DNA of 63,415 bases, filler included, from Collodictyon triciliatum (GCA_043381765.1; 8 parts of 8 records of this genome joined end to end with filler, not necessarily neighbours in it); one strand, 5' to 3'. Shown: positions 21,531 through 59,307, counted from the whole stretch's first letter. Numbers and translations: made by a program. The notes: generated by a model not told the origin, from the letters alone.

Positions 21531-24500
21531 TTAGATCTCATCATCCGCCCCATCAACAGAGACCAACCTCACATTTGCGGAACGATCAAGCGCTGATAGA
21601 TTTAGGGTTTCGTTATGTAAATGAAAGGAGCAAATGTTAATGCAACGTTTAATAAAGGAAACTAACAACCATAAACATACAACAGAGAATACCATAATAT
21701 AATTTTATAGCAAATAGAGTTAATACATATATCGGTCCATGAATATCCATTTGCTCGTGTCGACCCGAAGGGTAGCCGAGACCAATCCCGTTCCCTGCAC
21801 AAAATAGTTTTGGATACACAAGGTATCTTCATGTTTTGACATGCTTTACAAAGCCGCATAAAAGCTTTCACTAAAGAAAAAAAATAATTAAAGTAGGCAT
21901 GTTCTACGGTGCGAATACTTACCACGCCCGTGAACGTTTCAAACCATAGCCGATAAATGCAATTAGCGACACCGAAACAAGGATGGTGCCTGCGATACGC
22001 TTTTCACATAATATTGTGGGTTGAAATCTATTTAACTTGTTTGAAGATTGCGTTTGACTATACACAAGGCAAGGTCAAAATTTTATGGACAGATGAGTGA
22101 ATACCATTCCATGGCCTCCCGATTCCCCCTCCGGGCAGGGGTTCGTCTTGGCTCCCTTCTGAATACCACCAACGCAACTATTTCCTGGAACGAGTCGGTA
22201 TCTAACTTGCAAAATCATGACGAGTTTCAGCTTCACGTGTACTCGGTTATCTTTAAACAGAGTTATTTAGAAATGGGATGCAATAAACATGCTTTCGGGT
22301 GATTTTATCCAAACCCTGAATATTCTACAAAATATTTGCCGTGTTTGCACTGCTCTTCCTTTGATGGCAACGTCACATCATCTGACCTGAATTTATTAGC
22401 ATGTTACACCCTATACTTTGAATCGAATAAAGGGAAAAAAAAACATGTTACATCCCCCACGAAATCATTACGGTTTGTAGGATGCACATAATAAAAGGCT
22501 TAATTAAGAATTATATACTTTTGACATTCAAAAGAGCCAGGAGTCCTTTCATACCCAAATTCACTGCCAATTAGAAAATTAAGGGCATGTTTTAGTGAAA
22601 ATCAAATCAACAGATGAATATGCTCAGGGAAGGATAAGTTCATCGTCGAGTGACAGTGTTGAGTCTCATGAGAAAAATATACACCGATTCCTTTACCATT
22701 CCCAATCCTCTTCCGTGCATAAGCAATTCTGAACAACTTCAACGCGTTCAAACTCTTGTCCGTTGTAGCTATTTCATAGACAATTTCATCAAACCGTACA
22801 CATGATTTATTAAATGAAAACATGCCTGTATTATACATGAATCCCTGAGTTTATGACATTTATTTCCACCCAAGCATTTTTTTTTTTGCAATCTCCTATG
22901 GAAAAAAAGTACCACGCTGCTTCTCTTTTCCTTCGAACTACTCTAGAGCGACGACCCAAAAGACACTCACCTCCAAGCGAGTCTGACAGACTGAAAGTTT
23001 CATAATCACTGTCTGGGGTATCTGGGCTCTCATATCCTTTACCTTGGTGTTCCATTAAAAAGAAATAAATAAGATGAAAACCTAAGCCAACATCATATAA
23101 TCGTTTCCTTCTCTATGCCATTTTTGGGTCACTGACATTGTCTTTCATGTAGTCCAGAAAAATCCAATCCAATTATAACTGAATTCCAATCGCCATCCTC
23201 GTTTAGTTCGTCAGCAAATACAATAAAGGTTTGACCAGTTGCACTTGGTTTCGAAATAATATCTTGAATGTATAGTTCGTTCTTCCTAAGAGAAAACATT
23301 TATAATTTATTGAAATGCCACAGTAAAATAGGTACACATATCCGTTTTCTTTTGTGATGTTTTATTTTGGGTATATGAAAAGAACTCACGAAATACTACA
23401 TTCGTTCCAAGTCAGTCCTTGGTCCCATGAATATCTGAATAAAAAAAAATAACAATATAAATTTGAAGCCTTCTATAAACCAAACCAACAATATTTCAAT
23501 CGCTATTTTTAAACCGTAAAATCAATGTGAAGACGTTTTGAAATTTTACTGAGAAACTCACATTATTCCATTTGATTCCACATCATACAGACCCATGACG
23601 ATTAACGCGCCGTGATCAGCAAAATCGTATACATACAAATCATCTCTTATTTTAGTCCTATGACAGGGATTATATCGCTCTCATAATCAAGACCCTAAAT
23701 AAATCTGAAGACATGTTGCTCCATATATATATTTATGCGAAGATAGGAAAAATAATTCTTTTGTCTGAGGATGTGAGCTCATAATATTTAAAGGTATCCA
23801 ATTGACCATGTTAGTCCTGCATCACGAGACAAGTAGGTCGACATATCGTCCAAATGGGGCATTAAGTAATCACCGATTGTTCCTATTGTAAATACATATT
23901 TTTTGCTTGAATTTCATATGTTAATTTTCTGTATTGTGGGATTAATTAATACGAATAATTCAATTCTTGAATCATTACTGATTTGTTAAGTAACCAGATG
24001 CCATACTTTGAATCGAATAAAGGAAAAAAAAAAAGTAACCAGATGCCATGATCAATCCAACAGCGTTGTTTTTACTATACAAAGCGCCGCCGACATAAGG
24101 TTCTGAATGCATCTGTTAATATACCATAAAACGGATATATTACTAGACATGCCAATACGATCATTTAACGCAGTCTGTCTCGTATAGTCTTATACAACAA
24201 ACCAAGTCCTGAGCGAGTGTCTTGTGAGTCACAGCAACATGGAATTGACACTTATTCGGAGTCGAGCATTTCTCTCCCTCTGGAAAAGACAACGGGCGCC
24301 ATTCTCCTCCTTTAGTATCATATGTTACAAACATTTTTTTTTTTAGAATCAACATTGCCGCTGATTTCCATTATTCAACTGGACTCATATAAAAATTGAA
24401 TATATAAAAATTTGTGTATCCCTTACGTGCACATATGAAACAAATAGAAGCTCCGAAAATACATCAAACATCAGTGAATAACGAATAACGAATAACGAAT

Positions 24501-27184
24501 AACGAATAAAGAATAAAGAATAAAGAATAAAGAATAAAGAATAAAGAATAAAGAATAAAGAATAAAGAATAAAGAATAAAGAATAAAGAATAAAGAATAA
24601 AGANNNNNNNNNNCAAAGAACAAAGAACAAAGAACAAAGAACAAAGAACAAAGAACAAAGAACAAAGAACAAAGAACAAAGAACAAAGAACAAAGAACAA
24701 AGAACAAAGAACAAAGAACAAAGAACAAAGAACAGCAAATTTTGGATACAAAAAGGGTCATACCTTTATCAAATGTAATATAGGACTTGATTTCGAAATC
24801 AGCTGAGTGAGATACATCTGGATTTCGTAAAATATTTGCTATAAAAACACCCTCGATTCCGTTAACCCGAGAAAAGTCACAATGCCCTGTAAAACATTTT
24901 CTTATCAAATTCTTTTCTAAATTATACGGGTTTAATCATAATAGTCAAACACCATTACATAAAGATGTGTTTTTTTTTTTATCATGGTTAAGAAATACAC
25001 AATAGTATTTTAGTGAATTACAAATATCAAATTTTTGTTTTGCTTGTAACCTGTGCGCTCTCGTTTATTGTAGCGCAGGGATATCGAAAATTCATGGGCA
25101 CCAGAGTCTGCATGCGTATACGACTTTTAAAACAATAACGATGATTGAGTTAAGCTTCATATAGTGGTATTCTCTCACCAGAGTCATATAAATGTCCCCA
25201 AAGACCATCGGAGTGATCGACATTTACTAACACAGTCTTCTCTGAAGCATCCAATATGGTGTACCTCTATCAATTTCGAATGAAAAACAGGTTACAAGCA
25301 ATAAACAATACGCATGAAAGAGTCGATCTTACATTTTCTGCAACATGCTCATTCTTCGGAAACATGGCTTTCTTGAAGCTAGCTCCGCTATCAGTACTTG
25401 ACAGGAGATTCAACGCTGTTTCTTCTGTCTTTGACTGAACCTGTAGTAAAATGAAAAATCACAAAATAAAATTTTAAATGCTCGCAAAATTAAAAAAAAA
25501 TCAAGAATTCTTTCAAAACGTTTTATCTGGAAACCTTTTTTTGTTTTGGTTCTTTGTTTGTTTGTTTCATGGACTTGAATGTGAGGTACCAAAAGCATAC
25601 AAATAAACAATAAACAAAAATATCTAATAAATTAAATAGAACCTGTGCTACAAATAGGAACTGGTTTTTGTAGAATATAAAGCCCACACCATGGTCAACA
25701 AGTTCCTATAGGATAATCTACTCAATACAAAATGACACAATATTCACATAAGACTATGTAATAAGTGAAATAAAAAAAGAGATACACAATGCAAAAAAAG
25801 TAAAACAGTCAAATCAATCAATAAATAGATAATCAAAAGGTGGTATTAGGATGCCAATATAACCTTTAGGCTATTAGGGAATGAGTCAACATTTGATTTG
25901 TAAAATTTAGATTCATATCGATCCTTTTTGTATTGATTCCCGCTTTTCTCATTGAACATAGAAATATATACAGTCGAGTTCGGAGTTTTCCCCTGCAGAA
26001 ATAAAAGAGATGTATTCAGGTAGACATAAATTGGGGAAGTAGAATGAATTATTTAATTTTCCCTTTAATTTTTCTTTTGTAAGATGTAAATAATTGACGA
26101 GAATCAAACCATCCCTGCATCACCCCACGATGCGTCAATCACGTACGTTGCGACCTGTTTCCATGATTCACCCCCGTCCTTTGTAACGTAAAGCTATGAA
26201 CACAATTAGTTAGACATCCTTGACCATTCCAAATATTGCTGTATGGGTTCTAGGGCCAGAGTTTGAGATAACTAAGGCAAATTGCGGTATGAATTATAAT
26301 GAATATTTATAATATGAAAATTACTACATACATATGTGTGACAATCTTCGGTGCTTCCAGCTACATAACACGATGCACGAATACTCAGTCCGAGGGCTGA
26401 CTTCTTATCAAAGGGATGAGGTTTAATCACGACAAAACCATATGAGCCTGATATTGAGACAAGCTTAAACTTTGCACCGTAATCCGAGGAGCACCAGATG
26501 AAATCACCATGAGACGTGAGTATAACCTAATGATAATATAAAAATAGATAAAAATAGATAAAAATAGATAAAAATAGATAAAAATAGATAAAAATAGATA
26601 AAAATAGATAAAAATAGATAAAAATAGATAAAAATAGATAAAAATAGATAAAAATAGATAAAAATAGATAAAAATAGATAAAAATAGATAAAAATAGATA
26701 AAAATAGATAAAAATAGATGAAGCAAAAGCCCAACGAAAAATGAAGGAAAGAAGGAAAGAAGGAAAGAAGGATAATGCTCGCCAAGCTCTCTCACTGGAT
26801 ACCATATATGCTAGCTTACATATTGTCCATCCGCAAGAGGATAGATACTACGAACACCAGAGCCCCGGCCAACAATAGTTTCAGATCCACGTTCCAGTGT
26901 CGAACCAATGTTTGTCCAACTAATCCCCTCATTCGCAGAGCGAAAGAGACCTCCTAATCCAGTCTGTACCAATACAATCTACACAACACGCCAAATGGCC
27001 ATAAAATCGCTGTCTTAGTTGCTGATGATACTTTATCAGAACATATGTCAACCTGAATGGTCGTGCAGCTTATCTATAGTCTAAGTTCAATCTAGACACT
27101 ACCAAGCTGACCCTAATAACTACGTACTTTTTGATCCGCACCAATGTACTTTACTGCGACAGGTGGTTCAGTTATTGCCTGGGC
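21531..27184 (-). CDS. VPS10/sortilin family sorting receptor; 5' end missing at the contig linker
   Basis: BNR/Asp-box repeats (YVTKDGGESW, SSTDSGASF, ITFDKGGEW, YLSRDAGLTW, YSWDQGLTW), CDFSRVNGIEGVFIAN, 10CC segment ECLLGRR..RRKREAA, CEFGY, TM IAGTILVSVSLIAFIGYGL, and an acidic tail ...DGADDEI-TAA at 21531. Confidence 0.92.
22412..22443 (+). mobile_element. Micro-element copy (TACTTTGAATCGAATAAAGGG-A9)
   Basis: Flanked by CATGTTACACCC (22400-22411) and CATGTTACATCCC (22444-22456); lies in a VPS10 intron. Confidence 0.8.
24005..24034 (+). mobile_element. Micro-element copy (ACTTTGAATCGAATAAAGG-A11)
   Basis: Perfect 17-bp TSD AAGTAACCAGATGCCAT at 23988-24004 and 24033-24049. Confidence 0.9.
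24476..24733. repeat. Intronic 7-mer array GAATAAC > GAATAAA > GAACAAA
   Basis: Read directly; the unit changes stepwise along the array. Confidence 0.95.
26540..26719. repeat. Intronic 10-mer array (AAAATAGATA)n
   Basis: Read directly. Confidence 0.95.
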
Positions 27185-59099: not shown

Positions 59100-59122
59100 T
59101 TGAATCGAATAAAAGAAGAAAA
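59100..59122 (+). mobile_element. Shortened micro-element copy
   Basis: TTGAATCGAATAAAAGAAGAAAA flanked by AACTAATAA on both sides. Confidence 0.6.
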
Positions 59123-59307
59123 AACTAATAATAAAATAATAAAGTGAGAGCACTGCGGACCGCACGCCTTTCCTTCTCTCTAACAACAATTGGAAAGATT
59201 GGAGATACTCTTATCCTTATGCAAAGTCTTTGTCCTGTTTTTTGCAATCTGAATTGATTCGCAGTCGGCCTTAAAGAGGCCCCTCTCCAACCCCACTGAG
59301 CAGCACA

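What the first reader, a model, noticed from the sequence alone, without database searches (positions are those of the whole stretch)
22400..59131. Ultra-short (~20 nt + A-tail) mobile element with long target-site duplications, about 9 copies in 63 kb
Seen: the motif (T)ACTTTGAATCGAATAAAGG(G)An recurs at 22412, 24005, 29950, 44111, 59100 and 54258 (+), and at 34581, 37601 and 52489 (-), always outside coding exons. The best copies have 17-bp direct repeats: perfect AAGTAACCAGATGCCAT at 24005, one mismatch at 29950 and at 44111, and ~12-13 bp at 22412. Established: a variable A tail plus a long A-rich-start TSD is the signature of target-primed reverse transcription by L1-type non-LTR machinery. 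Unusual: the insert is far shorter than a SINE, has no Pol III A/B boxes, and most copies begin at nearly the same base (ACTTTG) rather than at random truncation points. Inference: either a defined ~20-nt polyadenylated small RNA is being retroposed, or a LINE 3' end aborts at a fixed point. If this density holds, it would be a high-copy family across the genome.
Basis: partly seen in the sequence, partly recalled or inferred. Interest (0 to 1): 0.8.

Follow-up and report, generated by a model that had tools for sequence, protein, structure and literature searches.

The report
Tiny retroposed LINE tail stubs
The repeated 20-base motif is the extreme 3' end of a LINE retrotransposon, pasted about nine times into this protist DNA as dead stubs that nearly all stop at the same few bases, which is far shorter and more uniform than LINE copies usually are.

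Summary
CTTTGAATCGAATAAAG occurs 10 times (up to 3 mismatches) against 0.64 expected. Six copies are flanked by 9-17 bp target-site duplications, and five carry A tails of 5-11 nt.

The source was found. A metagenome contig (L020) carries the same 29 bases, tail included, at the end of about 1 kb of ORF. That ORF has a zf-RVT domain, the C-terminus of L1-like ORF2 proteins. An RNA contig from the same or a closely related organism reads LINE-like 3' UTR sequence into the motif.

So these are retroposed LINE tails, not a SINE or an independent 20-nt RNA gene.

They are not ordinary truncations either. All 9 motif-bearing copies keep only the last 17-24 LINE bases, and 5 start at the same A. No other LINE sequence is in the window. 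Two unrelated ultra-short A-tailed inserts (about 32 and 51 nt) with 16-18 bp duplications lie nearby.

Most likely reverse transcription aborts very early. A pre-cleaved RNA template is not excluded. Two sense-strand intronic copies carry a T run instead of an A tail and remain unexplained.

The parts
22412..22443 (+). LINE-tail stub TATACTTTGAATCGAATAAAGGG + A9, the longest copy (starts at L020rc 996/997). TSD 22400-22411 / 22444-22455 (11/12).
   Evidence: It lies inside the intron 22384-22517 of a spliced minus-strand transcript, so it is antisense to that gene.
24005..24032 (+). Youngest-looking stub, ACTTTGAATCGAATAAAGG + A9-11. Perfect 17-bp TSD at 23988-24004 / 24033-24049.
   Evidence: 100% identical over 29 nt to L020rc 1000-1028. 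DNA contigs of two metagenome runs bridge the filled site (X1 record 5, X4 record 17).
29950..29975 (+). Stub ACTTTG...AAAGGG + A5(C). TSD 29933-29949 / 29976-29992 (16/17).
44110..44136 (+). Stub (A)ACTTTG...AAAGGG + A6-8. TSD 44093-44109 / 44137-44153 (16/17).
52485..52514 (-). Older stub CTTTG...AAAGG + A5GAAG..., with a 9-bp exact TSD at 52515-52523 / 52476-52484.
59098..59122 (+). Diverged stub TATTGAATCGAATAAAAGAAGAAAA. TSD 59087-59097 / 59123-59133 (10/11).
34581..34600 (-). Stub ACTTCGAATCGAATAAAGGA followed by T9AT12 (34559-34580) instead of an A tail, with no TSD. Sense-oriented, between two consecutive DNA ligase 1 exons.
   Evidence: Flanking exons match DNA ligase 1 chain 7l35_A residues 465-505 and 500-541.
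37601..37621 (-). Stub ACTTTGAATCGAATATAGGGA followed by T7, with no A tail and no TSD. Sense-oriented inside the same DNA ligase 1 gene.
   Evidence: Ligase exons lie on either side, at 38047-38232 and 36802-36933.
54258..54276 (+). Degenerate copy CTTTGAATCGATTAAAGAG. The tail region runs into an N gap at 54289.
58972..59029 (+). Unrelated ultra-short A-tailed insert (51 nt ending ...CAATAAACTGTTGAAAAGAAACC + A7-9). Perfect 18-bp TSD at 58954-58971 / 59030-59047.
   Evidence: Single copy in the window.
36469..36507 (+). Unrelated ultra-short A-tailed insert (about 32 nt ending ...GGAAGAATAAA + A). 16-bp TSD (15/16) at 36453-36468 / 36508-36523. Antisense inside the DNA ligase 1 gene.

Best explanation
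The elements are dead-on-arrival retrocopies of the last 17-24 nucleotides, plus poly(A), of an L1-like non-LTR retrotransposon (LINE).

The LINE's 3' UTR ends ...GGCATAACCTCGCTACACTTTGAATCGAATAAAGG-A(n). The AATAAA in the motif is presumably the LINE's own polyadenylation signal (my reading of the sequence, not tested).

The proposed sequence of events is inferred:
1. The LINE endonuclease nicks a T|AA-like site.
2. The nicked strand primes on the poly(A) tail.
3. Reverse transcription stops, or the cDNA is joined to the upstream target end, after only about 20 bases.
4. The staggered second nick gives a 9-17 bp duplication.

Shown here: identity with a LINE 3' end, A tails, TSDs, clustered 5' ends, and transcription of a LINE-like 3' UTR.

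Inferred: that early abortion of cDNA synthesis or very fast 5' joining is a general property of this machinery, rather than cleavage of the template, and that this sets the length.
For: 1. Source element.
- The exact 17-mer occurs in 117 metagenome loci, nearly all in unrelated contexts.
- Only L020 has ACTTTG...AAAGG + A10. It is preceded by about 1 kb of ORF with a CxxC...H...C motif that hits Pfam zf-RVT (E 1.4e-7, 32.5 bits against a cutoff of 27.5).
- Four distant full-length relatives carry Exo_endo_phos + RVT_1 + zf-RVT.

2. Window copies against the LINE.
- blastn of L020 against the window matches only L020rc 996-1028, at 9 places.
- Five copies start at position 1000, one at 996, two at 1001 and one at 1003.

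3. Same or closely related organism.
- RNA contigs of run X3, whose exons are 99-100% identical to the window's gene, include one whose sequence just before the motif reads ...GGGCATAACCTCG.
- This matches the last 12 bases of the L020 3' UTR before position 996.

4. Retroposition hallmarks.
- TSDs of 17/17, 16/17, 16/17, 11/12, 10/11 and 9/9 abut the inserts.
- T|AA is present at 5 of 7 reconstructable target sites (24006, 44112, 59098 and the two unrelated inserts), but not at 29951 or 22416.

5. No longer copies here.
- 0 of 168 ORFs of 70 aa or more hit RT or endonuclease families.
- tblastn with P0213 and P0214 gave nothing below E 0.78.
- Searching by the terminal motif would have found longer copies too.

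6. Generality.
- Two unrelated A-tailed inserts of about 32 and 51 nt have 16-18 bp TSDs.
- No insert longer than 62 nt has an exact TSD of 13 bp or more next to an A run of 6 or more within 9 kb.

7. Abundance.
- Summed contig depth at the element is 60.6, 1865, 1733 and 231 in X1-X4, against roughly 3-40 beside it.
- All 7 DNA-contig loose ends shown upstream of the motif are non-LINE.
Against: - A purely stochastic early abort should give a smooth length distribution. Instead 5 of 9 copies start at exactly one base, and no copy shorter than 17 nt was found.
- No RNA structure explains a stop. Folds of the last 201 and 65 nt score z -0.42 and -0.21.
- The 5' junctions show no microhomology.
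- L020 is a metagenome contig, not proven to come from this genome. It lacks the RT and endonuclease parts and has a frameshift.
- Two copies (34583, 37604) have a T run, no A tail and no TSD. The model does not explain them.
- The sample is 9 copies in 63 kb plus a few contig ends. No whole genome was available.
Confidence: 0.8

Rival explanations
1. The template is a discrete short RNA. LINE mRNA is cut about 20 nt upstream of its poly(A), for example by small-RNA-guided slicing, another endonuclease, or 5'-3' decay halted by a protein bound at the 3' end. The RT runs off the new 5' end, which gives a near-fixed start.
For: - 5 of 9 copies start at the same A, and the spread is only 996-1003.
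- There is no microhomology at the 5' junctions, and one copy has an extra A (44110), as expected for run-off and end-joining.
- No RNA structure explains an RT stop.
Against: - The starts are not identical.
- The longest copy's extra bases follow the LINE sequence.
- Two unrelated RNAs also gave inserts of only about 32 and 51 nt. This points to a property of the machinery rather than of one cleavage site.
- No ribozyme or other Rfam family was found in L020. All 4 hits were far below gathering score.
- No RNA-end data were available.
Confidence: 0.15
2. An independent micro-SINE: a tiny non-autonomous element with its own source gene that borrows the LINE tail.
For: - The unit length is uniform and the copy number apparently high.
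- The two T-run copies superficially resemble a short gene followed by a Pol III-type terminator.
Against: - A 20-nt unit has no room for an internal promoter, and there is no tRNA or Rfam match in the window.
- The two T-run copies share no upstream sequence and have no A tail to be copied.
- The identical sequence is the terminus of an ORF2-bearing element.
Confidence: 0.03
3. Not mobile: an adapter or primer artefact, an assembly artefact, or a chance or functional motif such as a shared polyadenylation cassette.
For: - The motif contains AATAAA.
- RNA contig depth at the motif is very high.
- The assembly is gap-rich.
Against: - TSDs flank the inserts.
- Independent DNA contigs from two metagenome runs bridge the 24005 insertion with its flanks.
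- The pattern gave 0 matches in the genome contigs and viral-contig scans, and no paper in the library holds the string.
- Enrichment is 10 against 0.64 expected.
Confidence: 0.02

Closest known systems
5'-truncated ('dead-on-arrival') L1 insertions made by target-primed reverse transcription
   Same: - 3' end of an ORF2-bearing element, A tail and T|AA-like target.
- TSDs of 9-17 bp. Human L1 TSDs have a median of 13 bp with quartiles 10-15 (PMC12016303, passages read).
   Different: - Human L1 inserts have median lengths of 394 bp (somatic) and 1240 bp (germline), with poly(A) medians of 34-39 bp (PMC12016303).
- Here all 9 copies are 17-24 nt with tails of 5-11 nt, and their starts cluster within 8 bases instead of spreading along the element.
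Sporadic poly(A)/poly(T)-only or severely truncated L1-endonuclease-dependent insertions, such as the poly(T) insert in an NF1 exon
   Same: TPRT products with almost no element body. [quoted passage not shown]
   Different: Those are rare single events of unknown source. Here the stub is the dominant, recurrent product of one identifiable LINE.
SINEs and LINE-tail-sharing non-autonomous elements (stringent LINE/SINE pairs; recalled, no call)
   Same: Short non-coding units that carry the partner LINE's 3' tail and are mobilised by its RT.
   Different: - No promoter-bearing head, and no tRNA, 7SL or 5S part.
- The unit is only the tail.
- The 5' ends are not identical.
Truncated LINE tails noted earlier in this scan in a red alga (finding e1-554291; AI note, not checked here)
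   Same: A repeat first read as a SINE turned out to be LINE 3' ends with TSDs. One form there has a fixed start.
   Different: Those copies are about 270-285 bp, more than ten times longer.

Membership tests
L1-type (APE endonuclease, poly(A)-primed) non-LTR retrotransposon insertion | Sequence is the 3' terminus of an RT-encoding element | tested here: met
   L020 has the motif + A10 at the end of an ORF with zf-RVT (PF13966, 32.5 bits against a cutoff of 27.5). The RT domain itself lies beyond the 1157-bp contig.
L1-type (APE endonuclease, poly(A)-primed) non-LTR retrotransposon insertion | APE-type endonuclease and RVT_1 domains in the source element | not testable with these tools
   These were seen only in 4 distant full-length relatives (27-34% identity to P0214). 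The source element's 5' part was not available.
L1-type (APE endonuclease, poly(A)-primed) non-LTR retrotransposon insertion | 3' poly(A) tail | tested here: met
   5 of 9 window copies, plus L020, have A5-A11. 2 of 9 have a T run instead. 2 are degenerate or abut a gap.
L1-type (APE endonuclease, poly(A)-primed) non-LTR retrotransposon insertion | Target-site duplication of variable sequence, about 7-20 bp | tested here: met
   6 of 9 copies have TSDs of 9-17 bp. The reversed-sequence control gave 0 events against 4 in the real sequence.
L1-type (APE endonuclease, poly(A)-primed) non-LTR retrotransposon insertion | Endonuclease consensus at the nick (TT|AAAA-like) | tested here: inconclusive
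   T|AA at 5 of 7 reconstructable sites, counting the two unrelated inserts. The sample is small and the genome is AT-rich.
Ordinary 5'-truncated LINE population | Broad, continuous distribution of 5' end points along the element | tested here: not met
   9 of 9 motif-bearing copies start within L020rc 996-1003, and none is longer. This covers the window only, since no genome was held.
SINE | Pol III promoter-bearing head (tRNA-, 7SL- or 5S-derived) | tested here: not met
   The unit is about 20 nt. The window has 0 tRNA genes and 0 Rfam matches at gathering score.
SINE | Discrete unit with one defined 5' end | tested here: inconclusive
   5 of 9 copies start at one base and 4 of 9 start 1-4 bases away.

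The most novel reading that the evidence does not exclude
The stubs are cDNA copies of a discrete 3' fragment of LINE mRNA produced by a host RNA-level restriction step, either slicing or decay halted at the 3' ribonucleoprotein.

The two sense-strand copies that carry GGA + T run instead of an A tail would then be retroposed uridylated fragments.

If so, the genome holds a fossil record of cleavage and tailing of a LINE transcript in a deep-branching protist. It would also mean these stubs seed AATAAA signals and A-rich tracts throughout introns.
Probability: 0.1. Interest if true: 0.75.

Novelty: new variant of a known kind. Interest (0 to 1): 0.45.

Why it matters
If the pattern holds genome-wide, this LINE almost never makes a copy longer than about 25 bases.

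- That would be a natural extreme of abortive target-primed reverse transcription, or of template destruction.
- It would allow study of what limits LINE cDNA synthesis in a little-studied eukaryotic lineage. The one informative exon is closest to Diphylleia rotans, CRuMs.

Yet each one adds an AATAAA and an A tract to introns and intergenic DNA.

It is still a variant of well-known LINE biology, not a new kind of element.

Tried and rejected
- **Earlier notes.** Nothing for this genome or sequence. A word search gave nothing. Another gave only analogies.
- **Window scans.** No Rfam family and no tRNA.
- **Metagenome scan.** Of 117 loci with the exact 17-mer, 116 are unrelated contexts at roughly chance level. 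L072 has G + A4 but no family features.
- **Other collections.** The genome contigs and viral-contig scans with the 24-base pattern gave 0 matches each.
- **RNA structure or ribozyme as the cause of the fixed end.**
  - Folds are no better than shuffles (z -0.42, +0.32 and -0.21).
  - Rfam on L020 gave 4 hits, all far below gathering score.
- **Sequencing runs.**
  - No run is listed on record as RNA.
  - X2 and X3 behave as RNA because their contigs skip GT..AG introns.
  - No empty (pre-insertion) allele was seen. The two DNA contigs that bridge 24005 are filled, and 22412 was not bridged by DNA contigs. This says nothing about polymorphism.
13 loose ends and 134 pieces were not shown.
- **TSD null.** The first null is inflated by microsatellites (null fractions 0.02-0.08). 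The adjacency-based scan with a reversed control is the better test. It missed 22412, 44110 and 58972 through its low-complexity filter.
- **A fourth 'event'.** 17539(-), an 80-nt insert, looks by eye like leucine-rich-repeat coding sequence. I did not count it as retroposition.
- **The two T-run copies.** No shared sequence beyond the motif and the T run, and no TSD.
- **DNA ligase 1.** The ORF 37670-37906(-) gave no PDB match. The ligase reading of that exon is by eye only.
- **Literature.**
  - The motif string is in no paper.
  - Searches on truncation hotspots and on Collodictyon/Diphylleia genomes found nothing on such stubs.
  - One search was badly posed and uninformative.
  - Supplements were not consulted.

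
Full report
**Observation**

The motif is real and non-random. CTTTGAATCGAATAAAG has 10 matches at up to 3 mismatches (5 exact), against 0.64 expected. 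None of 100 dinucleotide shuffles reached 10.

| Copy | TSD match | A tail |
|---|---|---|
| 24005 | 17/17 | A9-11 |
| 29950 | 16/17 | A5 |
| 44110 | 16/17 | A6-8 |
| 22412 | 11/12 | A9 |
| 59098 | 10/11 | diverged |
| 52514(-) | 9/9 | A5 then GAAG |

Every one of the 5 occurrences of AATAAAGG(G)A4+ in the window is preceded by the full motif, so there are no shorter truncations. A scan for [TSD]-insert-A run-[TSD] gave 4 events in the real sequence and 0 in a reversed-sequence control.

**Context**

The window is AT-rich eukaryotic DNA (GC about 0.28-0.41) with 24 N gaps and very many A-rich microsatellites. Its genes have short exons:
- a USP4/15-like protease;
- an LRR protein;
- DNA ligase 1 on the minus strand;
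- a GH125 mannosidase.

The best hit of the USP exon is a Diphylleia rotans transcriptome protein at 79% identity. The source is therefore probably a relative of that freshwater protist (CRuMs). This rests on one exon. No whole genome is held.

**What the motif is**

A scan of metagenome contigs for the exact 17-mer gave 117 loci, almost all in unrelated contexts. One of them, L020, reads ...GGCATAACCTCGCTACACTTTGAATCGAATAAAGG + A10.

- The roughly 1 kb upstream of the motif in L020 is GC-richer ORF with a CxxC-x7-H-x4-C motif (my reading of the translation). It hits Pfam zf-RVT above the curated cutoff.
- The ORF has one frameshift or stop.
- Its relatives are few: 1 in the word-indexed search and 16 among 1.84 billion representatives.
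- The four full-length relatives carry Exo_endo_phos + RVT_1 + zf-RVT, the L1-like ORF2 layout.
- Atlas neighbours are zf-RVT clusters of plants, oomycetes, Mucoromycota and green algae.

blastn of L020 against the window matches only its last 33 bases or fewer, at the nine motif sites. The 24005 copy is 100% identical over 29 bases, tail included.

The LINE belongs to this organism or a very close relative. RNA contigs of runs X2 and X3 carry exons 99-100% identical to the window. One X3 contig reads ...GGGCATAACCTCG directly before the motif, like the L020 3' UTR.

**Why these are not ordinary truncations**

Searching by the terminal motif detects copies of any length. Even so, all nine start within L020rc 996-1003:
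- five at the A of ACTTTG (position 1000);
- one at 996/997;
- two at 1001;
- one at 1003.

The window holds no other LINE sequence:
- 0 of 168 ORFs of 70 aa or more hit RT or endonuclease families.
- tblastn with the LINE proteins found nothing below E 0.78.

In two DNA metagenome runs, several contigs match only the roughly 30-base element and have different flanks. All 7 upstream loose ends shown are non-LINE. Summed depth at the element is 60.6 and 231, against about 3-7 beside it. The tool warns that such depths are a poor measure, and 13 loose ends and 134 pieces were not shown.

Two X4 contigs begin 4-7 bases upstream of ACTTTG, with 1-2 mismatches to the 22412 copy. This fits other copies that extend a few bases further into the LINE, but their letters were not shown.

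For comparison, human L1 inserts have median lengths of 394 bp (somatic) and 1240 bp (germline), and poly(A) medians of 34-39 bp (PMC12016303, passages).

**Mechanism**

The A tails, variable TSDs, and T|AA at 5 of 7 reconstructable target sites fit target-primed reverse transcription by an APE-type endonuclease/RT. The cause of the near-fixed length is inferred.

Evidence that it is a general property of the machinery:
- Two unrelated single-copy inserts of about 32 nt (36469-36507) and 51 nt (58972-59029) each end in a poly(A) signal plus tail and have 16- and 18-bp TSDs.
- No insert longer than 62 nt has an exact TSD of 13 bp or more within 9 kb.

Evidence against a simple stochastic abort:
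- There is a peak at one base.
- No copy is shorter than 17 nt.
- No stable RNA structure was found.
- No ribozyme was found.
- The 5' junctions show no microhomology.

A pre-cleaved 3' RNA fragment as template therefore stays open. I give it about 0.15.

**Unexplained**

The copies at 34581-34600(-) and 37601-37621(-) end in GGA followed by T9AT12 and T7. They have no A tail and no TSD.

Both lie in sense orientation within the minus-strand DNA ligase 1 gene, between matched exons.

By contrast, two A-tailed inserts whose gene context is known are antisense:
- 22412, in an intron defined by spliced RNA;
- 36469, in the ligase gene.

With n = 2 this may be chance. A U-tailed template or endonuclease-independent capture are possibilities, and neither was tested.

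**Verdict**

The element is a LINE tail stub, not a SINE or a small-RNA gene. It is a new variant of a known kind: extreme, clustered 5' truncation as the dominant product. The literature searches found no description of it.

Noticed in passing
window 58972-59029 (+), TSD 58954-58971 / 59030-59047: A 51-nt + A7-9 insert unrelated to the motif family. It ends in AATAAA...AACC-poly(A) and has a perfect 18-bp target duplication. It looks like the stub of another polyadenylated RNA.
   Followed up: partly
window 36469-36507 (+), TSD 36453-36468 / 36508-36523: An insert of about 32 nt + A tail with a 16-bp TSD (15/16). It lies antisense inside the DNA ligase 1 gene and is a second unrelated ultra-short retrocopy.
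   Followed up: partly
window 34559-34600 (-) and 37594-37621 (-): Two motif copies carry GGA + T run instead of an A tail and have no TSD. Both are sense-oriented within the DNA ligase 1 gene. No explanation was tested.
   Followed up: partly
whole window, e.g. 1-191, 7468-7566, 20968-21061, 26538-26719, 41514-41617: The window is very dense in perfect A-rich (or T-rich) microsatellites of period 3-13 (48 TRF rows at score 100 or more). Many are about 100 bp long and abut N gaps. I wondered whether the many A-tailed stubs seed them, but did not test this.
   Followed up: no
window 24476-24732: A (GAATAAA)n array is preceded by (CGAATAA)n, about 450 bp from the 24005 stub. The units resemble the motif core CGAATAAAG. 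This may be coincidence.
   Followed up: no
window 21467-23656 (-): Spliced RNA contigs define a minus-strand gene with GT..AG introns of only 94-149 nt. The intron holding the 22412 stub (132 nt) would be about 88 nt without the insert and one TSD copy.
   Followed up: partly
window about 34348-38232 (-), probably to 39723: A DNA ligase 1 gene is split into many short exons. Four exons were matched to PDB DNA ligase 1 chains, colinear from residue 305 to residue 800 of chain 7qnz_A.
   Followed up: partly
L020 (metagenome contig, minus strand as read): The LINE ORF has a stop or frameshift about 450 nt before the poly(A). This copy is therefore itself decayed, or the contig has an error.
   Followed up: no
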